From Lama guanicoe (lineage: Eukaryota): DNA of 64,000 nucleotides. The translations under genes were made by a program, and so were the position numbers. The stretch's first letter is position 1, and each line of letters starts with the position of its first letter. Positions 4,381 through 63,480 of this stretch are shown here, one piece after another. The notes below the pieces were generated by a model, which did no database searches, had not been told where the DNA came from, and saw only the letters and a list, made by a program, of their open reading frames with translations. The DNA is taken from NCBI GenBank assembly GCA_013239625.1, contig MU055362.1, positions 2,681,430-2,745,429 of the forward strand, read 5' to 3'.

Positions 4381-4439
4381 AACATTTCTCAGTGTACAGC
4401 CTGAATTTAAAATATTAGATGACTTCCCAAGCTGAGGTA

Positions 4440-6590: not shown

Positions 6591-7267
6591 AAGTTAGCCA
6601 GAAAAGAGGGGGAAATTATTCTCAGGATTTCCAGCCACACTCACAACATCATGACATCGGGCGTGGGAACCCGGCTGAGAGTTATCACTGTGGGCTGACA
6701 CCCTCTGTTATTACGGGGCAGATCATCCCTCCCTGGGCTGGTGTGTGGGTCCAAGGACAGAGAGTGCATTGTCAGCATAACTTGGCAGGCTCACTAGCTG
6801 GGGGGTCAGTCTTCAAGGCTGACCCCCCAGTGGCAGCAGCTGAGTCAAGGGACAGACTGAGATGACACCTCCGGGGTCTTATCTTTGGCTTTCTCCTTGG
6901 TTGTCCACTGACTCTGGATTCATGTCTGGATAAAAAACCCATCTTCAGGCTGGAAGAAGCCTCTACCTTGAGTGCTGTTGGGACGCCTCTGTTTTCACCT
7001 TCATTCGTCTGTGCTCTAGACCCTGCCAGTCCCTGAGAGTGAGGTGGGGTCTTGCTGAATGAGCACTGCACTGCATATTTTGGCTTTAGGGTGGCTTTGG
7101 GTTTGGTCATTGGGTTTGGCCCAATGCTGGGCCCCCGCTCGGAGGAGGAGTGGCAGTGTGTCAGATGGAGAACGGTCTAAGAGTCAGGCAGCCTGACTTC
7201 TGGTCTGAGCCCTCTCACTAAGCAGTTCTCAAGCAAGTTACTGCTGCCATGAACCCCAGTATGTATC

Positions 7268-7968
7268 TTTTTAAAAAACTGAAGTATAGTTGATTTACAA
7301 TGTGTGTTATTCTCTGGTTTACAGCAAAGTGAGTCAGTTATATATATTCTTTTTCAGATTCCTTTCCATTATGCATTATTACAAGATATTGAATATTGTT
7401 CCCATATGAATATGAGTATGAATATGTGCTATACCATAGGACCCTGTTGTTTATCTATTTTATATATAGTAGTGCCTGCTAATCCCAAACTCCTAATTTA
7501 TCCCTCCCCCATCTTTCCCCCCTGGTAAACATAAGTTTGTTTTCTATGTCTGTGAATCTGTTTCTGTTTTCTAAATAAATTCATTTGTATCATTTTTTAA
7601 AGATTCTATGTATAAATGATATATATCTTTCTCTGTCTGACTTACTTCACTTAGTATGATAATCTCTAGGTCCATCCAAATCTATGTTACTATAAATGAC
7701 ATCATTTCATTCCTTTTTTACGGCCGAGTAGTATTCCATTGTACATATATACTTCTTTACCCAATCATCTGTCAATGGACAGTTAGTTCACTTCCATATC
7801 TTGACTATTTTAAGTAGTGCTTCTGTGAACATTGGAGTGTATATATCTTTTCAAGTTAGAGTTTTCTACGGATATATGCCCAGGAGTAGGATTGCTGGAT
7901 CACATGGTAACTAATTTTAGTTTTTTAAAGAACCTCCATACTGTTCTCCATAGTGGCTGCACCAATCC
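7268..7968 (-). mobile_element. 5'-truncated L1 (cetartiodactyl-type 3' UTR plus ORF2 end)
   Basis: 'gaagtatagttgatttacaatg', 'tctgacttacttcacttagtatgataatctctaggtccatcc', 'gaacctccatactgttctccatagtggctgcaccaat'. Confidence 0.9.
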
Positions 7969-29029: not shown

Positions 29030-29484
29030 TGTTGATCAGCTCTGGCTACCACAGCCGAACACGGCAGACCGGGGGCTTCAACACCAGAGGTTCATTTTCT
29101 CACAGTTCTGGAGGCTGGAAATTGAGATGGAGGTGCCGCCAGGGTTGTTTTCTGGTGAGACCTCTCCCCGTGGCTTGCAGACTGCTGCCTTCTCCCTGTG
29201 TCCTCACATGGACTTGCAGAGAGAGGGAGGGAGAGGGAGAGAGAGGAGGGGAGGAGAGGAGAGAGCGGGAGGGATGGAGAGGGAGGGAGTAAAGAGAGAG
29301 AGCACACCGGTGTCTCTTCCTCTTCTTATAAGGACGCTAGTCCTAGTAGATTAGGGCCCCACCCACGTGATCTCATTTAACTCCAATTATCTCCTTAAAG
29401 ACTCTGTCCGGATACAGTCACATGGAGGGTTAGGGCTTTGACATGTGCTTTTGGGGTTGGGGGGCACATAATTGAGTCCATAAC
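29030..29484 (-). mobile_element. MLT1 LTR containing an expanded GA-rich tract (29217-29300)
   Basis: 'ttttctcacagttctggaggctggaa', 'gtgtcctcacatgg', 'tcttataaggac', 'attagggcccac', ends 'gtccataaca'. Confidence 0.85.
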
Positions 29485-39818: not shown

Positions 39819-40570
39819 GTGATGGTGGTGGTCCATTGATTGTTGAAAGATTCTCCTCTGTGCCCTGTTAGCTAAGTGGCATCCTGCTACACAGCTGATG
39901 TCTCTGTGCTGTTGAGAGGATGGGGACCATGGGCACTGTAGCCCATAGACTGGGCAGCCTCCAGGATCTCATTAATGTTCCAGAGAGGTCTTTGGCAATA
40001 GCCTGTGCCTCATGTGTTGGATAATGCTGGCCATCCATCACTCGTGACATTTTCACCCTTCTCAGTGTTGTCCAGGTTCTTTCTGTCCCTTGCGGGTTCT
40101 TTGAGGGCTCTGATGGTCAGAAAAGAGGGTAAAAACTACCACTACAGGGAACTATCTTCTATATCTTGCAGTAACCTGTGATGAAAAAGAATATGAAAAG
40201 GGATATATGAATGTATATGTATGACTGAAACATTATGCTGTACACAAGAAATTGATGCAACATTGTAAACTGAATATACTTCAATTAAACCAAACAAAAA
40301 GCCCCCAAATCTACCATTACAGCCTAGTCTGTCCGTTCTGAAGGGTCAGTTTCATTGATGTCTTTAGCTTCTCCCATCACCAGTTGCCTTGGCAATGTTG
40401 TCACCAGCTCTTAAGGAGATGGACTAGAGGCCAATCTGTGGGGCCATAACAGAGACAGGATCAGTTTCCCAACCAGAGCAGCAGCAGCTGCTGTCAAATA
40501 AACCAGGATATGAGACAACCAAAGAAAGCTGAAGCTTTGACTTCTGCAAGCCTGAAGAGGAGAGCTCTCC
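39819..40570 (-). pseudogene. RPL12: RPL12 (uL11) processed pseudogene
   Basis: Minus-strand translation 'APQIG..GDNIAKATGD', 'KLTLQN', 'IRALKEPARDRK', 'AKDLSGT.INEILEAAQSMG' versus RPL12 'APKIG..GDDIAKATGD, KLTIQN, IKALKEPPRDRK, ARELSGTIKEILGTAQSVG'. No introns; stops and frameshifts; stop at 39868-39870; UTR-like sequence on both sides; TSD gcctttMctttt at 39807-39818 and 40571-40582. Confidence 0.92.
40148..40306 (+). mobile_element. Short L1 3' end inserted in the RPL12 pseudogene
   Basis: 'gtatgactgaaacattatgctgtacac..gaaattga..caacattgtaaactga.tatacttcaat'; 16-bp TSD aaaactaccactacag (40132-40147) / aaatctaccattacag (40307-40322). Confidence 0.85.
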
Positions 40571-40606
40571 GCCTTTCCTTTTCAAAAAAAAAAAAATGAA
40601 AAAGAC

Positions 40607-41337
40607 CTTTTTATTTTAGAAATGTTTAAGATTTATAGCAAAATTGCAAAGATAGTACAGAGTTTCCATATACCAAGACCCAGTTTCCCCTATATTAACC
40701 CCTTACATTAGCATGGTACATTGGTCATGAGGCATGAACAGTTATTGACACATTATTATTAACTGGAGTCCATACTTCATTCAGAGTTCCTTAGTTTTTT
40801 TTTTAAACAAGTGTCCTTTTTCTGATCCAGAATCCCATNNNNNNNNNNNNNNNNNNNNNNNNNNNNNNNNNNNNNNNNNNNNNNNNNNNNNNNNNNNNNN
40901 NNNNNNNNNNNNNNNNNNNNNNNNNNNNNNNNNNNNNNNNNNNNNNNNNNNNNNNNNNNNNNNNNNNNNNNNNNNNNNNNNNNNNNNNNCTCCCTTCGTT
41001 TTGGGAGGAGGCCACGGAGGTAAACTGCCATTCTGATCACATCAAGGGTATGTACTATCCGCATGACAGCACTGTTGGTGTTAACCTTGATCAACTGGCG
41101 TAAGTAGTGTTTCTCAGATTTCTTTTGTGCAAAGTGACTTTTTTCCTCCTCCTTTTCTTACCGTGCTCTTTGGATGAAAGTTGCTATGTGCAGCCCATGC
41201 TTAAGAAATGGGGACTTATGTTCCACCTCCTTGTGGGTAAAGTATTTACATAAACTATTTGGAATCCCTTTGCATGGAAGTTTTGTCTATTCTTCCCCAT
41301 TGATATTTTTATTAGTTCAGGTGGTGGATTCATGGAT
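40607..41337 (-). mobile_element. L1MC/MD-like 3' UTR (host element; resumes at 49408-49495)
   Basis: 'aaaattgcaaagatagtacaga', 'cattattattaact', 'ttacataaactatttggaat'; continuation 'ggactcatggata...taatccaatactacttt' at 49408. Confidence 0.75.
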
Positions 41338-41354
41338 TTTGCACAAATTATACA

Positions 41355-41547
41355 TTTTTTTTAATTGAAGTATAGTCTGTTTACAATGTGTCAATTTCTG
41401 GTGTACAGGATAATAGCTCAGTCATACATATGCAAAAATATATTTGTTTTCATATTCTTTTTCATTATAGGTTACTATGAGATATTGAATATAATTCCCT
41501 GTGCTGAACAGTATAAACTCACTTATCTGTTTTATCTATAGTAGCTA
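41355..41547 (-). mobile_element. Lineage-specific L1 3' end
   Basis: T tail followed by 'aattgaagtatagtc.gtttacaatg...ttttcattataggttact..gagatattgaatata.ttccctgtgct'. Confidence 0.85.
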
Positions 41548-41995
41548 TAGCAGCATTATTGACATACACTACACAATTTACCCACTTAAAGTATACAACT
41601 CAATTTATTACGACTACTACTATTATTATTATTATTATTTAGCATCCAGAGTTGTTGGAGTCAGGACAGACATAGAATCAGCTCCCCATCCAGGGCAGCA
41701 GCAGCTGGTGTCAAAACCTAAGAAAGTCGAGACAACCATAGCCACAATCAATGTTAGAATATTTTTGTCACTGCACAAAGAGACCCCATAACAATTAGCA
41801 GCCACTCACCATTTCCTCCTNNNNNNNNNNNNNNNNNNNNNNNNNNNNNNNNNNNNNNNNNNNNNNNNNNNNNNNNNNNNNNNNNNNNNNNNNNNNNNNN
41901 NNNNNNNNNNNNNNNNNNNNNNNNNNNNNNNNNNNNNNNNNNNNNNNNNNNNNNNNNNNNNNNNNNNNNNNNNNNNNNNNNNNNNNNNNNNNNNN

Positions 41996-42265
41996 TTTAC
42001 AATGCTGTGTCAAATTCCTGTGTAGAGCACAATTTTTCTGTCATCCATGAACATATATATGTTCATTGTTACATTTCTTTTCTCTGTGAGCTACCATAAG
42101 ATCTTGTATATATTTCCCTGTGCTATACAGTATAATCTTATCTATTCTACATTTTGAACTCCCAGTCTGTCCCTTCCCACCCCCCGCCCCCTTGGCAACC
42201 ACAAGTTTGTATTCTATGTCTATGAGTCTGTTTCTGTTTTGTATTTATGTTTTTTTGTTAGATTC
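41996..42265 (-). mobile_element. Young camelid-type L1 3' UTR fragment
   Basis: 'tttacaatgctgtgtcaaattcctgtgtagagcacaattttt...cccttggcaaccacaagtttgtattctatgtc'; similar to 42848-43148; left end hidden in Ns. Confidence 0.85.
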
Positions 42266-42818
42266 ACTTAGCATGTTTTCAAGTCAAGTTTCANNNNNNN
42301 NNNNNNNNNNNNNNNNNNNNNNNNNNNNNNNNNNNNNNNNNNNNNNNNNNNNNNNNNNNNNNNNNNNNNNNNNNNNNNNNNNNNNNNNNNNNNNNNNNNN
42401 NNNNNNNNNNNNNNNNNNNNNNNNNNNNNNNNNNNNNNNNNNNNNNNNNNNNNNNNNNTTTGCGTAGATATATGTNNNNNNNNNNNNNNNNNNNNNNNNN
42501 NNNNNNNNNNNNNNNNNNNNNNNNNNNNNNNNNNNNNNNNNNNNNNNNNNNNNNNNNNNNNNNNNNNNNNNNNNNNNNNNNNNNNNNNNNNNNNNNNNNN
42601 NNNNNNNNNNNNNNNNNNNNNNNNNNNNNNNNNNNNNNNNNNNNNNNNNNNNNNAGGTTATAGTTAGGTCAACTGTCATTTTATTATTGAGTTGTATAAG
42701 CTCTTTATATATTCTAGATATAAGACCCTTAACAGATATATGATTTGCAAATATTTTCTTGCATTCTGTGGATTGTCTTTTCATTTTCTTGATGTTACAT
42801 TTTGAAGCACATATTTTT

Positions 42819-43671
42819 TTAACATTTTTTATTGATTTATAATCATTTTACAATGTTGTGTCAAATTCCAGTGTTCAGCACAATTTTTCAGTCATTCATG
42901 GACATATACACACTCATTGTCACATTTTTTTCTCTGTGATTTATCATAACATTTTGTGTATATTTCCCTGTGCTATACAGTGTAATCTTGTTTATCTATT
43001 CTACAATTTTGAAATCCCAGTCTATCCCTTCCCACCCTCTACCCCCCTGGTAACCACAAGTCTGTATTCTCTGTCCATGAGTCTATTTCTGTCCTGTATT
43101 TATGCTTTGTATTTGTTTGTTTGTTTCTTTTTGTTTTTGCTTTTTAGATTCCACATATGAGCGATCTCATATGGTATTTTTCTTTCTCTTTCTGGCTTAC
43201 TTCACTTAGAATGNNNNNNNNNNNNNNNNNNNNNNNNNNNNNNNNNNNNNNNNNNNNNNNNNNNNNNNNNNNNNNNNNNNNNNNNNNNNNNNNNNNNNNN
43301 NNNNNNNNNNNNNNNNNNNNNNNNNNNNNNNNNNNNNNNNNNNNNNNNNNNNNNNNNNNNNNNNNNNNNNNNNNNNNNNNNNNNNNNNNNNNNNNNNNNN
43401 NNTCCTGAAGTAGATTTCCTTCTGGATACAAGCCCAGGAGTGGGATTCCTGGGTCATATGGTAAGNNNNNNNNNNNNNNNNNNNNNNNNNNNNNNNNNNN
43501 NNNNNNNNNNNNNNNNNNNNNNNNNNNNNNNNNNNNNNNNNNNNNNNNNNNNNNNNNNNNNNNNNNNNNNNNNNNNNNNNNNNNNNNNNNNNNNNNNNNN
43601 ATGACGGCCATTCTGACTGGTGTGAGGTGATACCTCATTGTAGTTTTGATTTGCATTTCTCTGATAATTAG
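42819..43671 (-). mobile_element. Young 5'-truncated L1 with perfect 16-bp TSD
   Basis: ORF2 C-terminus 'MQIKTTMRYHLTPVRMAV..LPYDPGIPLLGLYP..ILSEVSQKEKEKYHMRSLICGI'; TGAAGCACATATTTTT at 42803-42818 and 43672-43687. Confidence 0.95.
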
Positions 43672-44339
43672 TGAAGCACATATTTTTGACTTTGATGTAG
43701 TCTAATTTGTCTTTTTTTCCTTTTGTTGCTTGTGCTTTTGGTGTCTTACTCAAGAAACTATTGCCTGGTCCAAGATGATGAAGACTTATGCCTATAGTTT
43801 CATCTAAGAGTTTTAGTTTTAGCTTTCACATTTAGGTTTGATCCATTTTAAGTTAGTTTTTGGATATGATATGAGGTAGGAGTCCAATTCCATTCTTTTG
43901 TCTGTGGATATGCAGTTGTCCCAGCACCATATTTTTCCCCATTGAATGATCTTGGAACCCTTGTCAAAAATCAACTGACCATAAACAGAAGAATTTATTT
44001 CTCAACTCTCAATTCTGTTCCATTGATCTAAATGTCTATCCTTAGGTCAGTATCACACTGTCTTGATTAGTGTAGATTTGTAGTAAGTTTTTGAAATCAA
44101 GAAGTCTGACTCCTCCAACATTGTTTTTGTTTTTCAAGATTATTTTGGATCTTGAGGGTACCTTAAACTTCTGTATGAATTTTAGGATATGCTTGTCAAT
44201 TTCTGCAAAGAAAGCAGCTGGGATTTTGATACACATTGTGATAAATCTGTAGATAACTTTGAAGAATATTACCATCTTAACAGTAATAAGTCTGGTCCAT
44301 GAACATGGGATGTCTTTCTATACAAATTATATTTTTATT

Positions 44340-45120
44340 AAAATAGTCTCTCATACTGAATAAGTAAAAGGTAGCATGTAGAGCAATGTACATTTGGTAT
44401 TTTATAATTGTCATCATTCATGTTGTAATATCCAAAATAGTTTTCTTTGATATAAATTGAGAATGTGAGGTTTCACTGTGATTATGAATATCTGTATATT
44501 TCTACCTTAATACCAGCCGGGAAATCATACAAAAGAGTGTGTAACAACGTTTATATTCCTTATATTTCACTTGTATCATTCAACATGATGTAGCACAAAA
44601 GTCAGAATGCATCCTGTGGCAAGATTCTTACCTGAAGTATTGAGCCAACAGAGCTGAAGTGGCCCCTTATGTCCTGAAAGTACATTACATGGCCTCTATT
44701 GTCTGAGTAAAAGGCTCAATTGAAAAAAGTTGGAACTTAACCAAAATTGGATTTTCCCTAACACAAGAGAATTGCCTTGAGTCATCCTGCTTGCTGCATT
44801 GTTGGATAGAAAACCTTGGTAAAGCAATATGCCCTGGAAATTGTTAAGCTGCTTTGTGCCTTGGAGGAAAATTTAAAAACTAAAGCAATTCCTCTGTCAA
44901 ATGTTCTCATTCATTCCAGAACTATCAAAATCTATTCCAATATTTTGAAGCATATTGTGCAGAAATTGCATTTATCTTCATCATGCATTGGGATGAGAGT
45001 ATTGATAGCTCTTAATACAGCCAACCTTGATTTTCATCTGTTATCTGCACAAGGACAGCATCAAACAAAGATTTCTATTTTCCAAGCCTGTTTGGAAAGT
45101 TCAAAGACTTCTGTGGTTTT
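44340..45120 (+). mobile_element. hAT (Charlie/Buster, ZBED8-related) transposase 5' fragment, degenerate
   Basis: 'LVKQYALEIVKLL...KAIPLSNVLIHSR...ILKHIVQKL' resembles ZBED8/Buster3 (recalled 'LVKPCALEIAQIV...QQVPLSDDVIHSR...ILQQVLEDI'). Upstream BED-like 'FTCII..D..QKSECIL'; downstream 'DESID' and 'FLFSKP' in shifted frames. Confidence 0.85.
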
Positions 45121-45124
45121 CCTA

Positions 45125-48100
45125 AAATTAAAAATTGAATTTTGAGATGAATGTAGATTCACATGCAGTTTTAAGAATTAATACAGTGATCTCTTATATG
45201 CTTAATATGGTTTTCCCCAATGGTAACATCTTACAAAACTATAGTACAATGTCACCACGAGAATATTAACAGTCATATGAGCAAGATACAAAATATTTCC
45301 ATCACCATAAGGATCCCTCATTGTTGCCCTTTTATAGTTACATTCACTTCCCTCCTACCTCCATCCCCTCCTGGACCCCAAGCAACCACTACTCTGTTCT
45401 ACATTTTTATATTTTTGTCATTTGAAGAATATTATATAAATGGAACTATTATAGTATGTAACCTTTTAGAATTGGCTTTCTCTTTTTTTTCCACTTGGAG
45501 TAATTCTCTGAAGATTCATTCATGTTGTTTATATTAACAGTTTGTTCCATTTTATTATTAAGNNNNNNNNNNNNNNNNNNNNNNNNNNNNNNNNNNNNNN
45601 NNNNNNNNNNNNNNNNNNNNNNNNNNNNNNNNNNNNNNNNNNNNNNNNNNNNNNNNNNNNNNNNNNNNNNNNNNNNNNNNNNNNNNNNNNNNNNNNNNNN
45701 NNNNNNNNNNNNNNNNNNNNNNNNNNNNNNNNNNNNNNNNNNNNNNNNNNNNNNNNNNNNNNNNNNNNNNNNNNNNNNNNNNNNNNNNNNNCGGAGTGAC
45801 TCTACCACTATATTTCCACAAGCAATGTGTAAGTGACCCCGTACCTCCGTATCCTTGTCAGCATTTGATGTTGTTATTATTTTTCATTTTAGTCATTTGA
45901 TGGATTGTAGTCATGTCTCATTGTGGCTTTAATTCCATTTTAACTAATGATGTTGAACATCTTTTCATGTGCTTGTTTGCCATTGAATATTCCCTTTGAT
46001 GAAATGTCTGTTTATGCCTTTTGTCCACCTAAAAATTAGATTGTCTTTTTTACCCTTGGTTCTTTACATATTTTAGATATTAGTCATTTCTTGGGTATGT
46101 ATTCTATAAATATTTTCTCTATATAGCTTGTTCTTTTATCTTCTTACCAGGTCTTTTATGGAACAAAGGTTTTAAATTTTGATGAACTCAAATTTGTCAG
46201 TTTTTTTCTTTTCTGGATCATGTTTTTGGTATCAAATCTAAGAATGGTTTGTCTAGTCTTAGAGACTCAAGTTTTTTCCTATTTTATTCTAAAAGTTTTA
46301 CAGTTTTATGTTTTACACTTAAGTCCATAATCCATTTTGAGTTAATTTTTATATAAGGTATGAGACTTGACTAGAGGTCCCCTCTTTTTCTTTTCTGCCT
46401 ACAGATGTATAATTGCTCTAGTATTGTTTAAAGGCTAACTTCCCTTCACCAAAATCCTTTTGTACCTTTGTCAAAAGTCAGTTGGACATATTTGTGTTGG
46501 TGTATTTCTGAGTTTTCTATTTTGTTTATTAATTTTGTGTCTATCCCTCCACTAATGCCACACAGTCTTGATTGCAGTAGCTTTGTTCTTCTTTTTCCGA
46601 ATTGTTTTTGTTCTTGTAGTTCCTTTGCTCTTCCATATAAACTTTAGAATAACCTTGTCTATATCTACAAAAATTCTTGCCAGAATTTGGAAAGTAATCA
46701 GTTTGGGGAGAATTGACATCTTTATTGCGTTGAGTCTTCCAGCCTATGAACACAGAACATCTCTCTTTATTTATAAATTCTTTAATTTCTTTAATCAACA
46801 CTTTGTAGTTTTCAACATGCAAGTCCTGTCAATATTTTGTTAGATTTATACTTATTTCAACTTGGGGGGGGTAGTTTGAAATGCTACTGTATTTTTTAAT
46901 TCCATTGTCTACATGTTTATTGCTAGTATATAGAAATACAATAAATTTTTGTAAGTTTATCTATATTCTATAACCTTGCAAAAATCACTTACTATATCTA
47001 GGAGTTTCTGTAGATTCCTTTAATTTTTCTATGTAAATAGTCATGTCATTTGCAAGGAAAGACTGTTTTATTTCTTCCTTTTTTATCTGTATGACTTTTG
47101 TTTCTTTTTCTGGCTTTATTGCTCTGGCTAGACCATTTTGCACTATGTTAAATAAGAGTAAATATTCTTGCCTTGTTTCCAGTTTTAGAGAGAAAGCATC
47201 GACTTGCACTGTGAAGTAGAACATTGGCTGTCAGTTTTTGTAGATGCTCTTAATCACATTGAGAAAGTTCTCTCTGTTCCTGTTTGCTGAGAGTTTTTAA
47301 CATAAACGTGTTTTGAATTTTTTTTTTGTGAAGTGATTTTTTTGCATCAGTTGAGATGAACATGTGGTTGTTCTTAATTAGCTTGTTAATATGATGGATT
47401 ATATTGATTGATTTTTCAATATTGAATCAGCCTTGCATCCATTGGAATAAACCTCAGTTAGTCTTGGAGGATAATTCTTGTTAAATATTGCTGAATTTTA
47501 TTTTGTTAAGGATTTTTGTGTCCACATTAAGGAGGGATATTGGTCTGTGGTTTTCTCTTTTTGTATTGGTAGCAGAGTGATAATAGCTTCATAAAATGAA
47601 CTGGGAGTTGTTGCTCCCTCTTCTATGGGATCTTTCACATATTTTTTCTTATAATGTTCTTCCTTCCTTCTTGATGTTATAAGGTTTTTTCTTTTATTGT
47701 TTTCTGTTTAGAGAGCCTCCTTTAGCCATTCGTTTAGAGTAGACCTGCTGGAAACAAATTCTCTTAGTTTTTTTTTAATATGAGAATTTTTCCCCCTCTC
47801 CGTTCTATAGGATATTTTTGCTGGGTGTGGGCTTCTAGGTTAATAGTTCTTTCTTTCACCACCTGGAAAATACTGTGCCACTTCCTGCTGGCCTCTGTGG
47901 TGTCTGGTAAGAAATCCACTATCATTCTAATTATTTTTCNNNNNNNNNNNNNNNNNNNNNNNNNNNNNNNNNNNNNNNNNNNNNNNNNNNNNNNNNNNNN
48001 NNNNNNNNNNNNNNNNNNNNNNNNNNNNNNNNNNNNNNNNNNNNNNNNNNNNNNNNNNNNNNNNNNNCAGATTGGTAGGTTTACACCAATTGCTGAATTT

Positions 48101-49404
48101 GGGAAGTTTTCAGCCATTATTTCTTTGAGTGCCTTTTCAGCCTCACCCAATCTCTCTTCTCCTGTAGGACACTGATGGCATGAATGTTAGATCTTTATTG
48201 TAGTACTATAGGTCCCCGAGGCTCTGTTCCCCTTTTTTCTTAAAAGTGTATTTTCTTCTTTAGTTCAGGTTGGGTAATTTCTATTGCTCTGTCATCCAGT
48301 TCCCTGATTCTTTCTTCTTGTTCCCTCTTGGCTATTGAGCCCAACCAATGAGCTTTTATTTCAGTCATTGTGTTTTCCATTTCCAGACTTTCTGACTCTT
48401 CTTTATATATTCTATTTCTTTGCTGAGGTTTTCTGTCTTTTCATTTGCTTCAGATGCATTTGTAATTGCTTGCTGAAGCATTTTTATCATCACTGCTTTT
48501 AAATCTTTGTCACATAATTCTAATGTTTCTGTCCTCTTTATGTTGCCATCTATTGATTTTTTTTAAATTTAGTTTTAGCTCTTTGTGGGTCTTCATGTGA
48601 TGAGTATTTTTGGCTGAAACCCAGGAATTTTTGTATTATGTTACGAGACTTTGTAGTTTACTTAATCTTCTCGTTTTAGCTGGGATTCTCTGCTACCACT
48701 TCAGGAGGGAAGTTGTAGTGCTGCCTTCTTCCTGCCAGGTGCAGGTAGAAGTCCAGATTTCCTACTTGGCACTTGTTGACATCTGAGGTGTGGGGGGTCG
48801 GGGGGTGTACTCCTTGTTACTGCTGGTTAGGAGTTCTGGCTCCCCATGTGGGTGTCACTGACACTGCAGGGGTGGGCGTGGGGCTCCTTACTGCTGTGCA
48901 TGGATGGGATAAAAGCCCTGGCTCCCTCCTTGATCTTCTCTGATACCATCTGGGTGGAGGTGTTGGGGCATCTTGTTATAGTCTCGAGAAGGTGGAAATC
49001 TAGGCCCCCCACTTGGCCTTTGCTGGCATGGGTAGAGGTGGAGCCACAAGTTTTTACCATGGTATTTGGCTGGAGTAGAGTGGTTATTGGCTAAAAATGT
49101 TTGTTTCTGGCCCTTTGTGTAGAAAGAGCAGGCTTTTGTTGGGGCTTTTTAAACATTTTGTCTGTGTGTCTTGGCGCTTCTGTGTTGTTGGCTTCTTCTA
49201 CTCCATGCAGAGAATATATGAAGCAAAAAGAAAACTTAGGGAACTCACAGTGTCATTTCTTGGACTCCAAGGTCCCTAGCTGGTCTACCTCTTCCCTTCA
49301 GTCTACTGCTGTGTTCTATATATAATGTTTAGGGGTTTTAGTCATACATAGTGGAAAAAATAGGGGAAAGTATGTCTAGTTAATCTTCCTAAAAGTGGAA
49401 GTAT
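45125..49404 (-). mobile_element. L1MC-like element with both 5' and 3' ends, internally deleted
   Basis: 3' UTR 'tgtagattcacatgcagtt'; ORF2 'ENYKVLIKEIKE', 'FLANDMTIYIE'; ORF1 'EIMAENFPN..IRMIVDF'; 5' terminus-like 'acttccacttttaggaagat' at about 49383-49402. Confidence 0.85.
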
Positions 49405-51354
49405 CTTGTGGACTCATGGATACTTGTTTTATGCTTAGGTTCTAATCCAATACTACTTTGTTTCTTCTTTTGCTCAAAAATTTCCAGTTATAGTAGTTGG
49501 TTGTGTTTTTCCTTTTGCTTCAGAATCCACCTGAGCTGCTTCCATGACCAAGGAAGGAAGAAACCCTACAGAAAGGTCAGGGTGGAAGAAAAGGCTTGGC
49601 TTCTTGGCTTCAAGACCCATAGCTTGAGTAGAGGTCTGACCTGAAGCCATTTCTGTGGCTCCCGCAATCGCTGTCCTACATAAATTGGATGTGGCTTGAT
49701 TAACTGATTGCAGGGCAAAGGTCCCAGACCCCAGCCTCTCCTCCCTGGGGACTTGATCCTGCCCATTTGATTTGTGACAATTCTTTCTCCCACCTTAGCT
49801 TGGGAGGAAATGGGATGCAGCCAGGGNNNNNNNNNNNNNNNNNNNNNNNNNNNNNNNNNNNNNNNNNNNNNNNNNNNNNNNNNNNNNNNNNNNNNNNNNN
49901 NNNNNNNNNNNNNNNNNNNNNNNNNNNNNNNNNNNNNNNNNNNNNNNNNNNNNNNNNNNNNNNNNNNNNNNNNNNNNNNNNNNNNNNNNNNNNNNNNNTA
50001 TCTAAATATAGGTAATCTTTCCTAATCAAATGATAAATGTGTGTGTCCCAAATAGAAGGCACATAGTTAGCCACCTCGTTACAGAAGTTCAGGTGAATAA
50101 TGGAAATATTACTGGCATGACACCAGATCAGATGCTCTGGGACACTCAGTACTTGGATGTCAGGGCTCTCTGAGGTTTTTGGTGAAAGATCCTTCCTGGG
50201 AGCAGAGGTAGCCCTCACAAGCCTTTTAGAATGATATTCCAGGTACTTCTTATTCCTGGCAGCACGTGATTGTGTGTGTAGGAGGTTATGCTGTGAACAG
50301 CCAGCATCTGGCTCTATCTCCAGTCCTTCCTGAGGGACCCCAACTGAGGGGCATCTCAGTTCCAGACTTAGCGGGTGTCTAGGACTCATTTCCTCTTCAT
50401 GTAAAGGGAAATTCACAGTGTTAGAGCTGGCAGGAACCTAATTACTGCTTCTCTATAGAAACCCTGGTTGCTGTTTAGAAACATCTGGAAAAATAAAAAA
50501 CAGTAATGCTGGGGCCCCACCTGCAGAGGTTCTGATTCTTTACACCAGAGGGATCAAGTAGGTAGTGTTATGATCTCCATTTAACAGATAGATACCCTGA
50601 GGCCTGGATTAAATTCCTCTCAGACCTGAGAGTTGCTCATGGTGGAGGATTTGAACCCAGGTGGTCTGAGTCTGGAGTCCCAGACCTTAACCAACACACT
50701 GCCTGGAGGTGGGCCTTCGCACGTGTTGGTTTTCTTCTATACCAATGAATGTTAGAATCACCTGGGGAGATTTTCACAAACATGGTCACCTGTACCCCAC
50801 TCCCTGATTCTAGTTTAACTGGGCTGGTGTGAGGTTAGCGCATTGAGGGGCTTTTAAATATCTCCAGGGGATTTGAATGGACATGCGGGGTCAAGGACCC
50901 TGATTTAAGCTCAATCTGTGGACTACTCCCCAGTGCCTAGAAACAGACCCCAATTCCCAGAGGTGGAAGTCAGCCAGAGGTAGTACCAGGACTCAGATGC
51001 TGACCAGCTTTCTATGCAGAAGGGGCATCTGGCTGAATAAGGCCTTTAATTTTTTTTATTTACTTATTTTTGGGGTTTACATTGTTTTTGTTGAGAACAT
51101 TAAGAGATTGAGAAATTTCACATAGAAGCCCAGGTTTCAGAATTCACTAGAAATATCAGCGTATCTGGTGACACTGGGCTAAAGCTGAGAAGGGTTGTTC
51201 TCTCCAGTTAGACATGTCCCCTCTGCCTTCCTGGCCTTCTCATGGCTGGTCCCCAAGGGCACTGGTATTTATAACCACTGTACTCCTCCCATGATGTCCT
51301 TCCTCACAAAAATTTGTGTTGTTGTCTTGTTACGATTCTAGATTTAAGCACCTT

Positions 51355-51570
51355 AAGGTTTTCAACCTGGGGACAACTCTGTCCCCTAGGGACATTTGGC
51401 AATGTCTCAAGTTCTGTGGGGTTGTCACAATGAGGGTGGGGGACAGTGCTACAAGCTTCTAGTGGGTAGAGGTCAGAGATACTGCTATACATCCTACCAT
51501 GCACAGGCCAGCCCCACAACGAAGAATTTTCCAGCCCTGAGAATCAGTAGTGCTAAGGTGGAGAAACTGC
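51355..51570. mobile_element. MER20 hAT element (copy 1)
   Basis: 'tcaacctgggg...gggacatttggcaatgtct...ttgtcacaa...tctagtgggtagaggtcaga..tgct..acatccta..atgcacagg'. Confidence 0.9.
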
Positions 51571-53884
51571 CTTGAGGTAGTGTCTGCGCCTCTTGCTCAT
51601 CTCTGATTTCAGAATCCACCTGAGCTGCTTCCATGGCCAAGGAAGGAAGAAACCCTACAGAAAGGTCAGGGTGAAAGAAAAGGCTTGGCTTCTTGGCTTC
51701 AAGACCCATAGCTTGAGTAGAGGTCTGACCTGAAGCCATTTCTGTGGCTCCCGCAATCGCTGTCCTACATAAATTGGATGTGGCTTGATTAACTGATTGC
51801 AGGGCAAAGGTCCCAGACCCCAGCCTCTCCTCCCTGGGGACTTGATCCTGCCCATTTGATTTGTGACAATTCTTTCTCCCACCTTAGCTTGGGAGGAAAT
51901 GGGATGCAGCCAGGGTGATCACTTATCTAGGGTGACAGCAAGTAAACATGAAAAATGTGCTAGGGAACACAAAAGGACAGCGATCAGAAAGGCTTTTTCT
52001 TTCAACCTAAATCATGATGTTTTGGGCGTCGGCTAGAGTTTCCCAAACTTCAGAATCCACCTGAGCTGCTTCCATGACCAAGGAAGGAAGAAACCCTACA
52101 GAAAGGTCAGGGTGGAAGAAAAGGCTTGGCTTCTTGGCTTCAAGACCCATAGCTTGAGTAGAGGTCTGACCTGAAGCCATTTCTGTGGCTCCCGCAATCG
52201 CTGTCCTACATAAATTGGATGTGGCTTGATTAACTGATTGCAGGGCAAAGGTCCCAGACCCCAGCCTCTCCTCCCTGGGGACTTGATCCTGCCCATTTGA
52301 TTTGTGACAATTCTTTCTCCCACCTTAGCTTGGGAGGAAATGGGATGCAGCCAGGGTGATCACTTATCTAGGGTGACAGCAAGTAAACATGAAAAATGTG
52401 CTAGGGAACACAAAAGGACAGCGATCAGAAAGGCTTTTTCTTTCAACCTAAATCATGATGTTTTGGGCGTCGGCTAGAGTTTCCCAAGTTATTTATAACT
52501 GTCCATCCCTGTTAAGGGATATATGTTTTATCTAAATATAGGTAATCTTTCCTAATCAAATGATAAATGTGTGTGTCCCAAATAGAAGGCGCATAGTTAG
52601 CCACCTCGTTACAGAAGTTCAGGTGAATAATGGAAATATTACTGGCATGACACCAGATCAGATGCTCTGGGACACTCAGTACTTGGATGTCAGGGCTCTC
52701 TGAGGTTTTTGGTGAAAGATCCTTCCTGGGAGCAGAGGTAGCCCTCACAAGCCTTTTAGAATGATATTCCAGGTACTTCTTATTCCTGGCAGCACGTGAT
52801 TGTGTGTGTAGGAGGTTATGCTGTGAACAGCCAGCATCTGGCTCTATCTCCAGTCCTTCCTGAGGGACCCCAACTGAGGGGCATCTCAGTTCCAGACTTA
52901 GCGGGTGTCTAGGACTCATTTCCTCTTCATGTAAAGGGAAATTCACAGTGTTAGAGCTGGCAGGAACCTAATTACTGCTTCTCTATAGAAACCCTGGTTG
53001 CTGTTTAGAAACATCTGGAAAAATAAAAAACAGTAATGCTGGGGCCCCACCTGCAGAGGTTCTGATTCTTTACACCAGAGGGATCAAGTAGGTAGTGTTA
53101 TGATCTCCATTTAACAGGTAGATACCCTGAGGCCTGGATTAAATTCCTCTCAGACCTGAGAGTTGCTCATGGTGGAGGATTTGAACCCAGGTGGTCTGAG
53201 TCTGGAGTCCCAGACCTTAACCAACACACTGCCTGGAGGTGGGCCTTCGCACGTGTTGGTTTTCTTCTATACCAATGAATGTTAGAATCACCTGGGGAGA
53301 TTTTCACAAACATGGTCACCTGTACCCCACTCCCTGATTCTAGTTTAACTGGGCTGGTGTGAGGTTAGCGCATGGAGGGGCTTTTAAATATCTCCAGGGG
53401 ATTTGAATGGACATGCGGGGTCAAGGACCCTGATTTAAGCTCAATCTGTGGACTACTCCCCAGTGCCTAGAAACAGACCCCAATTCCCAGAGGTGGAAGT
53501 CAGCCAGAGGTAGTACCAGGACTCAGATGCTGACCAGCTTTCTATGCAGAAGGGGCATCTGGCTGAATAAGGCCTTTAATTTTTTTTATTTACTTATTTT
53601 TGGGGTTTACATTGTTTTTGTTGAGAACATTAAGAGATTGAGAAATTTCACATAGAAGCCCAGGTTTCAGAATTCACTAGAAATATCAGCGTATCTGGTG
53701 ACACTGGGCTAAAGCTGAGAAGGGTTGTTCTCTCCAGTTAGACATGTCCCCTCGGCCTTCCTGGCCTTCTCATGGCTGGTCCCCAAGGGCACTGGTATTT
53801 ATAACCACTGTACTCCTCCCATGATGTCCTTCCTCACAAAAATTTGTGTTGTTGTCTTGTTACGATTCTAGATTTAAGCACCTT

Positions 53885-54100
53885 AAGGTTTTCAACCTGG
53901 GGACAACTCTGTCCCCTAGGGACATTTGGCAATGTCTCAAGTTCTGTGGGGTTGTCACAATGAGGGTGGGGGACAGTGCTACAAGCTTCTAGTGGGTAGA
54001 GGTCAGAGATACTGCTATACATCCTACCATGCACAGGCCAGCCCCACAACGAAGAATTTTCCAGCCCTGAGAATCAGTAGTGCTAAGGTGGAGAAACTGC
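53885..54100. mobile_element. MER20 hAT element (duplicated copy)
   Basis: Same sequence as 51355-51570, shifted by 2530 bp. Confidence 0.9.
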
Positions 54101-54379
54101 CTTGAGGTAGTGTCTGCGCCTCTTGCTCATCTCTGAGCACCCCAGTCTCTGGGCCTGGCTGGTGGCACATAGTAGATGGTCAATTAAATGTCAGCTGGCA
54201 GACCGTGCTGGCTTATCCTCCACTCCTGCTGGGTTTCCACCTAATGCATCGTTGCTTTGCTCTGTGGGCACCATATGGCCCCGAGATAAATGAGTGAGTC
54301 AGTACAAAGCCTACCATATGCAAAGTAAGTGATCTTATGAATGAAATCCAGAGCAGGGACACAATGGTTTCATCTGAAG

Positions 54380-55789: not shown

Positions 55790-58700
55790 AAACCATCACC
55801 ACAATCAAGAAAATAAAGTTTGTAATATCTCACTCCCTAACCTAAGGCTACAAAGATTTTCTCCTCTGTCTTTTCATCCAGAGTTTTGTCGCTTTACCTT
55901 TTATTTAAATCTCTGACCCATTTCGAATTGAACTTCAAGATGTGTGGTCCATGTTTTTGCGATGGACATCCAACTCTTCCAGCACCATCTGCAGATAGGA
56001 CTGTCCTCTCTCTATGGCGCTGCCTTTGCCCCTTTGACAAAACTTAGTTGTCCACATATGTGTGGTCTTTTTCCTCAACTCTATTCTGTTCCATTGATCT
56101 CTGTCTCTTGTGACACCAGCACAACCCTGTCTGGATTACCGTAGCTTTTCGAAGTCTTCAATATTACTCTTTTTCAAAGTACCCTCCAATAAAATGCTAA
56201 CTAGAAGTAATGCGTATGGACACCCATGCCTTGTTCCTGATCTTAGGGGGAAAGGCAATAGTCTTTTTTTTTTTTAAATCAAGTATGATGTTGACTGTAG
56301 ACTTTTTGTAGACGCCCTTTATGAGGCTGGGAAGTTCCCTCAATCCCTAGTTTGCTGAGAGATTTTATGAGGAATGGATGTTGGATTTAGTTAAATTGAT
56401 TTTCTGAGTCTGTTGAGATAATCATATGGTTTTTCTAGTTTTAATTTATTAATATGGTGAATTATATCCATTGATTTTTGAATGTTAAATCAATATTTCG
56501 TTTCTAGGATAAATGCCACCATGTATGAAATTTTTATATATTTTTGGATTTGCTTGATAAAACTATGTTTGGAATTTTTGCATCTATGTTCATGAGGGAT
56601 TTTGGTCTTAAGTTTATTCTCTTGTGATATCTATCAGGCTGTGGCATCAGGGTAATGCTGGCCTCTGAGAATGAACTAGGAAGTGCTTTCTCCTCTTCAA
56701 TTTTCTGAGTTTGTGTAAGTTGGCATTATTTCATCTTTAAATGTTTGGAAGCATTTACCAGTGAGTTTTCTTTGTAGGAAGTTTTTAAACTATAAATTCA
56801 TTTTTTAAAATAAATAAAAGACTCTTCCACGTATTTATTACTTCTTGAGTGAGTTTTGGTAATTTGTTTTTCAAGGGGTTTTTCCATTTTATTGAAGTTG
56901 CCAAAGTTATTGGCATAAAGTTTATTATAATAGCTCCTTTACTATCATTTTATTATCTGTAGGATCTATAATAATATTGTAGATTCCTGATGCTGGCAAT
57001 CTGTGTATGGCTTTTTTTTCCTGATCAGCCTGGCTCAGATTTATCAATTTCATTAATGTTCTTTAAGAATCGGCTTCGGGTTTCATTGATTTTTCTCAAT
57101 TGTTTTTCTGTTTTCTCACTGATTTCTGGTCTTTCTGATTTTCTTTCTTCTACTTACTTCAGGTTTAATTTGCTCTTCTTTATCTAGTTTCTTAAGGTAG
57201 AAGGTGGGGGTCATTGATTTGAGAACTTTCCTCTTTTATAGTAGAGCTGTTTAGTGTTACAAATTTCCTTTCACATACTGCTTTAATGGCACCTAACAAA
57301 TTTTTAGATGTTGCGTTTCATTTTAATTTGCTTCAGAATACATTTTGTCTCCCTTGTGATGTTTTCTTTGAGCTAAGCGCTTTTTAAAAATGTGTCATTT
57401 AGTCTCCAAACATTTGAAGATGTTCCGGAGATCTTTCTGTTATTTATTTCTAATTACATTCTGTTGTGGAAAAAGAATATACTCTGTATGACTTGAATTT
57501 TCAATTTATTGTTTAATGGGCCAGAATCTTGGTAAATGTTTTGTGTGCACATGAAAAAAATGTGTGTTCTGCTGTTACAAAGTCGTTTTTAAATATCAAT
57601 TAGGTCGAGTTGATTGATTGTGTTCAGTCTCCTACATCCTTACTGACTTTCTGCCTCCTTGCTCCTGGTAATATTCTTTGCTCTTAAATATAATTTGTCT
57701 GATGTAAATATAACCAGCTTGCCTCATGAACACTGTAAGGTAATAAATTTTTTGTTATAAGCCTCCAAGTTTGTGATAATTAGTTATGCAGCAATAGAAA
57801 ACCAGTTCATAGGGTGTAGAGTTCTAGGCTGAAGTTTTTTTTTTCTGGACTTTAAAGATATAACTGACTCTTCTTGCTTCCGTTACATCTGAGGAGAAAT
57901 CTGCTATCATCTTTCTCTTTCTTTTTTTCAATGTATGCAATGTGACTTTTTATAAGCTTTGGCTACTTTTACAGTTTTTTTCTTTGCAACTGATTTTGAA
58001 ATAACACGACTAGAATGTGTCTTGGGATCGTTTTCTTCCGATGTGTTGTGTTCAGGTGCGTTGAGCTGCTTGGATCTGTGGGTTTATATTTTTCATTAAA
58101 TTTGGAAGCATTTCAGCCATGATTTCTTCAAATATTTTTTCCTATGGTCCTTGCCTTCCTTTCTCTTCTTTTTTGGGGACTCAGTCTCACATACATTGGG
58201 TTGCTTGAGTTCACTGACGGTTTGTTCATTTTTAAAAATTCATTTTTTCTCTCTGTTTTTCATTTTGGAGAGACTTCACTGTTATGCCTTCAAGTTTACC
58301 AACCTTTTCTTCTGTGATGTTTGGTTTGCCATTAATTCCACTGAGTGTATTTTTAACCTCAGACACTGTAGTTTTAATCTGTTGAGTTTGGTCTTTTTTT
58401 ATATCTTCCATGTCTCTAATTTTTCAAACATATGTAATACAGTTTAATACTCTTTTAATGTTCTTGTCTGATAGTTCTAATATCTATGTCAGTTCTGGAT
58501 AAGTTTCAACTGATTATTTTTTTTCCCTTATCATGGCTGTTATTTTCCTGTTTCTTTGCATGCCTGGTAATTTTTCACTGGATTCCAGACTTTTGACTTT
58601 TAACCCTTTGTGTGCTGCATGCTTTTGTTTTCCTATAGATGTTATTGAACATTGTTCTGGAATGTACTTAACATTACTTGGAAACATTTGATCCTTTTGA

Positions 58701-59300
58701 GTCTTGCTTTTTAAATTTGTTAGGCAGGACCAGAGCTGTGTTTAGTTTGGGTTAATTACTTCCCCCTACGGAGGCGAGGCTCTTACCCTGTGAATGATGA
58801 GATTCCCCAGTATGATGGGACAGGTGCTGTTCCAGGTCCTGTTCAGTGCTGTGTACTGGCCCCTCTGATCCTTTCGGATTGCTCGTGCTCGTCTGGGCAG
58901 TTTCCTCACACGCTGTGCAGATCAGCACTCTGCTAGCTGCTTCTAGGGGACCTCTGCAGGTCTCTGGAGTTTCCTCTCTGTGAAGTTTTCTTCTCTCTGG
59001 TACCTTGTCCTAAGAGCCCTAGCTGCTCTTGGACTTGGTTCTCTCTCCTCAACTCAGGGCTTCTCCTGGGTTCCCCCACATTCTCACCCTTAGTGCGGCA
59101 TTCTGGAAGCTCTCCCATGGCAGCAAGCTGGACCACTTGTGCGCTAACCTGGTCTATTTCCTGACTCCCTGGGACCATTGTTTTTCATTGCCCAGTGATC
59201 AGTCTCTTGAAAACTGTTGTTTCAAACATTTTTGTCCAGTATTTCAGGCAAGAGGGTAAATCTCGTTCCTCTTTTTCCACCTTGGCTGGAAGCAGAAGTC
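55790..59300 (-). mobile_element. Old L1M element (ORF2, ORF1, 5' UTR), with a small MLT fragment near 57716-57810
   Basis: 'ccttgttcctgatcttagggggaaa', 'catctatgttcatgagggat', 'gtaatgctggcctc'; 5' terminus-like 'cttggctggaagcagaagtc'. Confidence 0.85.
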
Positions 59301-59612: not shown

Positions 59613-59995
59613 TGCAATTGACTGAATTGTGTCCCCCCACCCACCACCAATATCATAGGTGGAAGCCCTAACCCCCAGTGTGATGGTATTTGGAGGTGGG
59701 GCCTTTGGGAGGTAATTAAGTTTAGACGAGGTCACGAGAGTGGGACCCCTCGATGGGAGTAGTGCCTTTTAGGAAGCGCTCTTTCTCTCTCTCTCCATGT
59801 GCACACACGGAGGAAAGGCTGTGTGAAGCCATACAGAGAAGGGGGCTGTCTGCAAGCCAGCAGGAGCTCTCACCAGAAACCAACCCCTGTTAGACCTTGG
59901 TCTCGGACTTTCCAGCCTCCAGAACTGTGAGAAAGTAATTTTCTGTTGTCTAACCCAGTCTATGGTTTTTTATGATGGAGACCTAAGAAGACAAA
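59613..59995 (+). mobile_element. MLT1A-like LTR
   Basis: 'cctaacccccagtgtgatggtatttggaggtggggcctttgggaggtaatta', 'cagcctccagaactgtgaga'. Confidence 0.9.
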
Positions 59996-63194: not shown

Positions 63195-63480
63195 TCAAAT
63201 GTGCGTGTATTTGTGTGCCCAATATGATGGTATTTGGAGGTAGGGCCTTTGAGAGTTAATTGGGTCATGAAGGTGGACCCTCACAAATGAGATTAGTGCC
63301 TTTACAAATGAGACCTCAGAGGCTCCCTTGCTCCTTCTACCATGTAAGGTTACAGTGAGAAGATGGTCATGTACCAACCAGGAAGCAGCCTTGAACTTGG
63401 ACTTCCTGACCAAGGAATGAATTTCTTCTGTTTATAAACCACCCAATCTATGATGTAGCAGCTTGAACGGACCAAGACAG
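63195..63480 (+). mobile_element. MLT1A-like LTR
   Basis: 'gatggtatttggaggtagggcctttg...gggtcatgaaggtggaccctcac..atgagattagtgcc...tgtttataaaccaccca'. Confidence 0.85.

What the first reader, a model, noticed from the sequence alone, without database searches (positions are those of the whole stretch)
41324..49421. Apparent ancient L1 3' transduction carrying half of a hAT (Buster/Charlie) transposase
Seen in sequence: the host L1 3' UTR stops at GTGGATTCATGGAT (41324-41337) and resumes at GTGGACTCATGGAT (49408-49421), a 13/14 match. Reading the minus strand between these repeats gives: an L1 5' terminus directly at the repeat, ORF1, ORF2, the 3' UTR end (about 45125), then about 0.8 kb of antisense hAT transposase, then AATAAA (44334-44339). 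After removing the later L1MB insert, the second repeat follows that AATAAA by about 15-20 nt. The transposase is cut mid-ORF at the L1 3' end, and its other half is absent beyond 49421. Established: L1 read-through to a downstream polyA signal mobilises flanking DNA. Inference: a source L1 sitting inside a Charlie element moved the DNA-transposon fragment through RNA. Caveats: little polyA tail survives and the nick site is not clearly TTTT/AA.
Basis: partly seen in the sequence, partly recalled or inferred. Interest (0 to 1): 0.75.

Follow-up and report, generated by a model that had tools for sequence, protein, structure and literature searches.

The report
Ancient L1 carrying a DNA-transposon fragment
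An old, dead LINE-1 copy in a mammalian genome seems to have been inserted together with a broken piece of a DNA transposon that lay behind its parent copy, which is a neat fossil of a well-known process rather than a new mechanism.

Summary
The 13/14 direct repeat (41324-37, 49408-21) is the only such pair in the window. It encloses, on the minus strand, an old L1 (ORF1 and ORF2 match PDB L1 proteins). Behind the L1 lie about 0.8 kb of antisense Buster/ZBED8-type hAT sequence and the only AATAAA of that stretch, 17-19 nt from the repeat once a later L1 with its own TSD is removed. The hAT piece has no TIRs or 8-bp TSD, and the L1 has no TSD of its own at its 3' end. Corrections: the piece covers about 37% of the transposase (aa 2 to about 220 of 597), not half, and the L1 lacks ORF2 aa 1 to about 500, including the endonuclease. 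Best reading: one L1 3' transduction from a parent L1 inside a Charlie-type element (about 0.75). Not shown: source locus, empty site, host continuity, the exact L1 5' terminus, a poly(A) tail (3-4 A only) and a TTTT/AA nick. 3' transduction is textbook, and DNA-transposon fragments moved by L1 machinery are published. Interest is low (0.25).

The parts
40593..41337 (-). Host old L1 3' UTR, left piece, with its 3' terminus near 40600 (L1MC3-like: label recalled, untested)
   Evidence: Its terminal 155 nt align to the 3' end of the inner L1, 105/145, null 0 of 1000; sequence
41324..41337 (.). Outer target-site duplication, copy at the 3' end of the inserted block
   Evidence: 13/14 with 49408-49421, the only such pair. 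Extends 4-5 nt with one mismatch and one gap when read on the minus strand
41338..41342 (-). Last bases of the block; only 3-4 A before the TSD, so no real poly(A) tail survives
41343..44341 (-). Later 5'-truncated L1 (L1MB-like: label recalled) with its own TSD copies at 41343-41364 and 44322-44341. It landed in the A-rich end of the block and holds still younger inserts
   Evidence: TSD 19/20, null 16 of 3000. ORF2 aa 800-877 from 44317. Aligns to the inner L1 up to 44322, 405/584
42803..43687 (-). Young 5'-truncated L1 inside the L1MB-like insert, with a 16-bp perfect TSD (42803-42818 / 43672-43687)
   Evidence: overlapping 8-mers; self-BLAST
44334..44339 (-). AATAAA, the only AATAAA or ATTAAA on the minus strand between 44320 and 45140. 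Candidate cryptic polyadenylation signal, or part of a decayed A-tail
   Evidence: chance of lying 10-30 nt from the end was 107 and 249 of 5000 under two composition models
44322..44520 (+). Presumed 5' non-coding part of the hAT element, without a terminal inverted repeat
   Evidence: Lies directly upstream of transposase codon 2. No CAG near the edge. The best inverted match between the edges is chance (298 of 3000). Assignment to the element is inferred
44525..45122 (+). Decayed N-terminal third of a Buster/ZBED8-clade hAT transposase, aa 2 to about 220 of 597. It holds the zinc-finger region and the first catalytic Asp motif; the second Asp, CxxH, RW and catalytic Glu regions are absent
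   Evidence: The edge is uncertain by about 35 nt (alignments end between 45106 and 45158)
45124..47628 (-). Inner L1 (L1MC1-like: label recalled): ORF2 from aa about 503 onward, then the 3' UTR with terminus at about 45124-45135
   Evidence: (362/511 with the second L1)
47629..49407 (-). Inner L1 5' part: 5' UTR and ORF1, joined directly to ORF2 aa about 503; about 1.5 kb including the endonuclease is missing
   Evidence: ORF1. 47632-47935 matches the second L1's ORF1 end (0 of 300 null), not its ORF2 5' half (90 of 300). GC-rich 5' UTR core at 48680-49040. The exact first base is not shown by tools
49408..49421 (.). Outer target-site duplication, copy abutting the L1 5' end
49408..49515 (-). 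Presumed right piece of the host L1 3' UTR (about 110 nt)
   Evidence: T-rich like the left piece. Continuity with the left piece rests on recall of the consensus and was not tested

Best explanation
This is a fossil of one L1 3' transduction. Step 1 (inferred): at another locus an L1MC-type L1 inserted, antisense, into the transposase gene of a Charlie/Buster hAT element at about codon 220. Step 2 (established mechanism, inferred here): transcription from the L1's first base ran past its weak poly(A) signal, through the 5' part of the hAT element on its antisense strand, and ended at the first AATAAA about 0.8 kb downstream, short of the hAT 5' TIR. Step 3 (fits what is shown): the L1+hAT RNA was reverse-transcribed into the 3' UTR of an older L1 here, duplicating 14 or more bp around the whole unit. 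Step 4 (shown by nested TSDs): an L1MB-like element inserted into the A-rich end, and younger repeats followed. About 1.5 kb of ORF2 was lost at an unknown time. The unit is inert today: frameshifts and stops throughout, no endonuclease, two of three catalytic residues of the transposase absent.
For: A 13/14 repeat brackets L1 and hAT together and is unique in the window. The L1 has no TSD around itself: no shared 6-mer between its 3' edge and its 5' flank. The hAT piece has neither TIRs nor an 8-bp TSD: the longest shared word at its edges is 7 nt, A/T only, and the inverted match is chance. The transposase ends within about 20 nt of the L1 3' terminus, and the remaining 63% is nowhere in the window. 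The single minus-strand AATAAA sits 17-19 nt from the TSD (chance 2-5%). The 0.8 kb length is within the 50-1600 bp of confirmed transduced flanks (PMC3024322 passage).
Against: Only 3-4 A lie before the TSD, and the site does not read TTTT/AA. The AATAAA lies in an A-rich stretch and could be a decayed tail rather than a signal. The inner L1 is not intact, so its 5' and 3' parts are linked only by order, strand and the outer TSD. The same deletion shows that kilobase losses happened in this block, which keeps the serial-events rival alive. The 5' terminus test was not significant (419 of 2000). Source locus, empty site and host continuity are untested. 1,200 nt of the block are N.
Confidence: 0.75

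Rival explanations
1. Serial insertions plus deletions in place. The L1 inserted with the 14-bp TSD, a Charlie element later cut-and-pasted into its A-tail, and deletions removed both TIRs and 63% of the transposase.
For: A deletion of about 1.5 kb did occur inside this L1, and its A-rich end attracted other insertions. No poly(A) tail is seen.
Against: It needs two deletions that each stop within about 20 nt of an existing boundary (the L1 3' terminus and the TSD) without removing it. No TIR or 8-bp TSD remnant was found.
Confidence: 0.1
2. The block holds two L1 events: a 5' UTR-ORF1 piece at the TSD and a separate 5'-truncated L1 (with or without the hAT tail), joined at about 47628.
For: ORF1 runs straight into ORF2 aa about 503. 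The subfamilies of the two parts could not be assigned with tools.
Against: Both parts have the same strand and correct order. One TSD surrounds everything. By recall, this type of 5' end goes with this type of 3' end. Internal deletions are common in old L1s.
Confidence: 0.06
3. Template switch during reverse transcription. Priming began on a separate polyadenylated RNA antisense to a Charlie copy, then jumped to the 3' end of an L1 RNA, so no source locus with this junction ever existed.
For: It would give the same outer TSD and no inner TSD. No clear A-tail of a parent L1 is seen between L1 and hAT.
Against: The switch would have to land on the last bases of the L1 3' UTR. Read-through explains that position without coincidence.
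Confidence: 0.05
4. DNA-level copy (break repair or segmental duplication) of an L1/Charlie stretch from elsewhere, with a short duplication at the target.
For: No poly(A) tail and no clear endonuclease site. A recent DNA-level duplication lies about 100 nt to the right.
Against: The ends coincide with RNA landmarks: the presumed L1 start at one end and AATAAA plus 17-19 nt at the other. The neighbouring duplication is over 99% identical, so far younger.
Confidence: 0.04

Closest known systems
L1 3' transduction (Goodier 2000 and Pickeral 2000, seen only as reference entries; described in PMC13756887 and PMC3024322, passages read)
   Same: One TSD surrounds L1 plus downstream non-L1 DNA. The L1 has no TSD at its own 3' end. 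A downstream AATAAA lies near the end. The flank length (0.8 kb) is within the 50-1600 bp reported; 26 confirmed cases among 302 full-length L1HS.
   Different: The published cases I read concern young L1s with a visible tail and a mapped source. This one is old (about 70% identity to other old L1s in the window), has lost its tail and about 500 codons of ORF2, and its source is unknown.
Retro-DNAs (Tang and Liang, PMC11195612; abstract, section 12 and passages read)
   Same: A hAT-Charlie fragment without TIRs and with a TSD of 8 bp or more, attributed to L1 machinery. 317 of their 748 events are hAT-Charlie, including a 446-bp Charlie1a piece with a 13-bp TSD.
   Different: Retro-DNAs are stand-alone fragments. 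The authors removed all candidates within 50 bp of a retrotransposon because these could be transductions, so this case is of the kind they filtered out. It is also longer than their mean (209 bp) and not primate-lineage-specific as far as can be judged.
Buster-group hAT transposons / ZBED8-FAM200C-like transposases (Charlie family in mammals; PMC12637253 passages)
   Same: The transposase piece matches named ZBED8-like proteins of spider, lobster, moth, crocodile and sponge.
   Different: Intact elements are 2.5-3.0 kb with a 597-677 aa ORF, 14-16 bp TIRs and an 8-bp TSD. This piece is 0.8 kb, with about 220 decayed codons, no TIR and no 8-bp TSD. The exact Charlie subfamily was not identified.
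SpIREs, spliced L1 retrocopies (PMC5860796; passages read)
   Same: An L1 copy with both ends but an internal stretch missing.
   Different: SpIREs lose intra-5' UTR or 5' UTR/ORF1 sequence. Here the loss runs from the end of ORF1 to ORF2 aa about 503, and splice sites could not be checked without a consensus.

Membership tests
L1 3' transduction | One TSD (about 7-20 bp) encloses the L1 and downstream non-L1 DNA | tested here: met
   13/14, unique in the window, null 1-17 of 4000
L1 3' transduction | The 5' TSD has no partner at the L1's own 3' end | tested here: met
   No shared 6-mer between 45085-45140 and 49395-49445
L1 3' transduction | Polyadenylation signal 10-30 nt before the end of the transduced DNA | tested here: met
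   Only AATAAA or ATTAAA in 44320-45140 on minus, 17-19 nt from the TSD; chance 107 and 249 of 5000
L1 3' transduction | Poly(A) tail before the 3' TSD | tested here: inconclusive
   3-4 A only, after an A-rich stretch. Tails shorten with age (PMC13756887 passage)
L1 3' transduction | L1 endonuclease site TTTT/AA at the TSD edge | tested here: inconclusive
   Not present at the 14-bp edge. The copies extend 4-5 nt with a mismatch and a gap into A-rich bases, so the true edge is uncertain
L1 3' transduction | Source locus with the same L1/flank junction and the flank continuing | not testable with these tools
   No vertebrate genome collection on hand; nothing in the window
L1 3' transduction | Empty site, or host sequence contiguous across the TSD | not testable with these tools
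   No repeat consensus library; no second host copy in the window; paper motif search 0 hits. Recall favours contiguity
L1 3' transduction | For a full-length copy, the L1's first base abuts the 5' TSD | tested here: inconclusive
   Comparison with the second L1's 5' end gave 419 of 2000. An anchored view shows a similar short motif. Distance from ORF1 and GC profile fit
Buster/Charlie hAT cut-and-paste insertion | Buster-type transposase sequence | tested here: met
   15 hits at E <= 0.001; 4 of 6 looked up are named ZBED8-like; HMM of 28 named proteins gave iE 5e-15
Buster/Charlie hAT cut-and-paste insertion | 14-16 bp TIRs at both ends | tested here: not met
   Best inverted match 18/24, AT-rich, null 298 of 3000
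Buster/Charlie hAT cut-and-paste insertion | 8-bp TSD around the element | tested here: not met
   Longest shared word at the edges 7 nt, A/T only
Buster/Charlie hAT cut-and-paste insertion | Complete DDE transposase of about 600 aa | tested here: not met
   Covers aa 2 to about 220 of 597; motifs at 244, 274, 335 and 550 of the reference are absent
Retro-DNA (PMC11195612) | DNA-transposon fragment without TIRs and with a TSD of 8 bp or more | tested here: met
   the TSD encloses the L1 as well
Retro-DNA (PMC11195612) | Not within 50 bp of a retrotransposon | tested here: not met
   Abuts the L1 3' end; criterion read. Not filed as a retro-DNA
SpIRE (PMC5860796) | Internal loss bounded by splice donor and acceptor in the 5' UTR or ORF1 | not testable with these tools

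The most novel reading that the evidence does not exclude
The L1-Charlie unit was not a one-off. It was a small propagating lineage in early placental mammals: an L1MC source whose 3' UTR was extended by an antisense hAT fragment that supplied the working poly(A) signal. It may already have lacked the endonuclease half of ORF2 and been copied in trans. Siblings with the same junction would mark an uncatalogued chimeric class I/class II family and would order L1MC and Charlie activity in time.
Probability: 0.12. Interest if true: 0.55.

Novelty: new member of a known kind. Interest (0 to 1): 0.25.

Why it matters
If right, it is a readable record of an L1 3' transduction far older than the young human and dog cases in the papers I read. 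It also shows a DNA-transposon fragment spread through RNA as a passenger. Repeat annotation would count it as an independent Charlie insertion, which slightly distorts copy counts and nesting-based age orders. A source or sibling locus would give a parent-child link and a phylogenetic marker for early placental mammals. It adds no new mechanism, and nothing suggests a present function.

Tried and rejected
Protein searches that failed: Pfam on 9 stop-free frames of the block gave only 3 sub-threshold, unrelated hits. The word-index search with the hAT frame scored 0 of 379 candidates, and PDB gave 0. The Atlas gave a lead only (score 0.86, FAM200/ZBED5). A 44-aa ORF2 frame found 0 PDB hits; the neighbouring frame worked. 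A search for a full-length ORF2p gave 1 unnamed 260-aa hit, so ORF2 coordinates rest on three PDB alignments and on the second L1 of the window. Other copies of the host pieces in the window: none above background. L1 5'-terminus test: not significant. The L1MB-like and 8.1-8.4 kb 3' ends did not align significantly to the inner L1 or the host (937, 660 and 397 of 1000), so their labels are recall only. Rfam: 0 matches. Gene context: 0 of 229 frames of 72 aa or more, outside 40500-49500 and 52000-54200, hit Pfam at E <= 0.005, so the locus is not named. Rejected: a TIR pair at the hAT edges (chance); a domesticated ZBED8/FAM200-like gene (many frameshifts and stops); filing as retro-DNA (fails the authors' own filter). 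Szak 2003 (PMC156586) was not held. No fold or complex job was run, since nothing here encodes a protein. The bacterial/archaeal, phage and plasmid collections were not searched, as they do not bear on a mammalian repeat. No supplements were opened; those of PMC11195612 list retained retro-DNAs and could bear on the comparison.
Full report
SETTING. The window is mammalian-type DNA (CpG observed/expected 0.25; frames matching L1 ORF1p and ORF2p). The finding lies in an AT-rich pile of nested repeats. None covers a junction used below. No repeat consensus library and no vertebrate genome collection were on hand. All subfamily labels (L1MC1, L1MC3, L1MB, Charlie) are therefore recalled and come from no call.

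1. THE OBSERVATION. The two 14-mers and the AATAAA are at the stated coordinates. The repeat is more than chance. It is the only pair at 13/14 or better between 40600-41545 and 49000-49520. Neither copy has another match within 2 mismatches in the window. Random pairs of junction-sized windows reach 13/14 in 2, 3 and 17 of 4000 trials (40-49.5 kb) and 1, 4 and 8 of 4000 (0-49.5 kb) for search widths of 10, 30 and 60 nt. A local-alignment null gave 21 of 3000. Read on the minus strand, the copies extend 4-5 nt with one mismatch and one gap, so the true TSD may be up to about 19 bp.

2. THE INNER L1. ORF1 matches PDB ORF1p chains (E 2e-8). ORF2 matches at aa 524-548 and 647-710. The 3' end at about 45124-45135 aligns with the host L1's own 3' end at 40593-40748 (105/145, null 0 of 1000), which supports both being L1 3' termini of related subfamilies. 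Since aa 524 lies at 47567, ORF2 begins near aa 503 at about 47628. The alignment to a second old L1 at 55.8-59.3 kb (362/511) loses register there. The next 300 nt match that element's ORF1 end (null 0 of 300), not its ORF2 5' half (90 of 300). About 1.5 kb, including the endonuclease domain, is gone. That 49407 is the L1's first base fits the distance from ORF1, the GC profile and my recall. The tool test against the second L1's 5' end was not significant (419 of 2000).

3. THE hAT PIECE. Pfam, the word-index search and PDB missed it. The Atlas gave a lead (FAM200/ZBED5, 0.86). The exhaustive search found 15 proteins at E <= 0.001. Of 6 looked up, 4 are named ZBED8-like proteins of spiders and a sponge. 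I took 28 named non-human proteins (27, 1) and built an HMM, which hit 44582-44998 at iE 5e-15. Frameshift-aware alignments to 5 of them run from codon 2 at 44525 (codon 1 at 44551 for the sponge fragment) to between 45106 and 45158. The conserved run ends near aa 217-222 of a 597-aa reference, within about 20 nt of the L1 3' end. The piece is thus about 37% of the ORF plus about 200 nt upstream, 0.8 kb in all. Intact Buster elements are 2.5-3.0 kb. It has many frameshifts and stops. No C-terminal part is in the window: the best HMM match beyond position 210 had iE 6, and the best of 90 hits from 9 C-terminal queries had E 0.26. It has no TIR: the best inverted match is 18/24, AT-rich, null 298 of 3000. 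It has no 8-bp TSD: the longest shared edge word is 7 nt, A/T only.

4. THE 3' END OF THE BLOCK. The later L1 (ORF2 aa 800-877 from 44317) has a TSD of its own (19/20 with a 2-nt gap; null 16 of 3000). Without it, AATAAA lies 17-19 nt from the outer TSD. It is the only AATAAA or ATTAAA on the minus strand in 44320-45140. Chance placement was 107 and 249 of 5000 under two models, which is modest support. Against: only 3-4 A precede the TSD, the site does not read TTTT/AA, and the hexamer could be part of a decayed tail. The inner L1 has no TSD partner at its own 3' end, which argues that L1 and hAT arrived as one unit.

5. MECHANISM. Shown: the anatomy, the nested TSDs, the missing TIRs, and the coincidence of the transposase break with the L1 3' end. 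Established: L1 has a weak poly(A) signal and carries downstream DNA, and tails shorten with age (PMC13756887). Inferred: a parent L1 sat antisense in a Charlie transposase gene, and read-through to the first AATAAA made the unit that was inserted here (0.75). Rivals: serial insertion plus two well-placed deletions (0.10), two L1 events (0.06), template switch (0.05), DNA-level copy (0.04). The tests that confirm a transduction in the literature, a source locus and an empty allele, stay open, as does host continuity.

6. COMPARISON AND NOVELTY. It works like an L1 3' transduction: 3 of 8 listed features are met, 3 are inconclusive, 2 are not testable, and none failed. It is not a cut-and-paste hAT insertion (3 of 4 features failed). 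It is not a retro-DNA, because Tang and Liang removed fragments within 50 bp of a retrotransposon as possible transductions. That filter shows such cases are expected. The same paper reports 317 hAT-Charlie events among 748, and RISCI confirmed 26 transductions among 302 full-length L1HS, 50-1600 bp long. I saw no report of this event or of an L1MC-Charlie chimera in the listings of ten searches. That is weak evidence: the terms with a 3-prime could not match the printed sign, and subscription papers are not held. Papers seen: PMC11195612 (abstract, section 12, passages); PMC5753468, PMC3024322, PMC5860796, PMC12637253 and PMC13756887 (passages); all others as listings only; Goodier 2000, Pickeral 2000 and Szak 2003 as reference entries only.

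7. VERDICT. A real and carefully read structure, probably a true ancient 3' transduction, with two corrections (a third of the transposase, not half; ORF2 partly deleted). New member of a known kind, interest 0.25. The bolder reading, a small chimeric L1-hAT lineage, has probability about 0.12 and would deserve 0.55.

Noticed in passing
window 49518-54136: Near-identical local duplication with the pattern X-Y, partial X, X-Y (99.4-100% identity). All three X copies start at the same few bases, and both junctions jump back to that point. Either an assembly artefact or a very recent template-switch duplication. It starts about 100 nt right of the second TSD copy.
   Followed up: partly
window 47600-47680: ORF1 end joined to ORF2 aa about 503 in the inner L1. 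Whether this is a genomic deletion or was already in the RNA is unknown.
   Followed up: partly
window 55800-59300: A second old L1 on the minus strand with a presumed 5' end, ORF1, the 5' half of ORF2 and internal deletions (ORF2 regions far apart in an intact element lie about 150 nt apart at 56068-56492). Used here as an internal reference.
   Followed up: partly
window 4400-6620: A-rich plus-strand stretch that reads like ORF1 and the start of ORF2 of another old L1, with a short different insert near 5360-5490 that resembles a Tigger-type end (by eye and recall).
   Followed up: no
window 40144-40289, 41358-41534, 41996-42259, 42825-43660, 7277-7950: Several younger, related L1 or SINE 3'-end copies, 68-85% alike. 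They look camelid-like by recall, untested. One pair is inverted across the host L1's 3' part (40144-40289 vs 41360-41502, 82%).
   Followed up: no
window 40439-40498 and 41656-41715: A short unidentified repeat (42/50; 80% over 60 nt). The second copy interrupts the L1MB-like 3' end, and no TSD was found.
   Followed up: partly
window 1-64000: No Rfam family and no Pfam hit in 229 long frames, although 20-34 kb is GC-rich. Short exons would have been missed.
   Followed up: partly
window 1319-1595, 29096-29481, 59617-59934, 63218-63452: Related dispersed repeats, 69-89% alike, resembling MaLR-type LTRs by recall.
   Followed up: no
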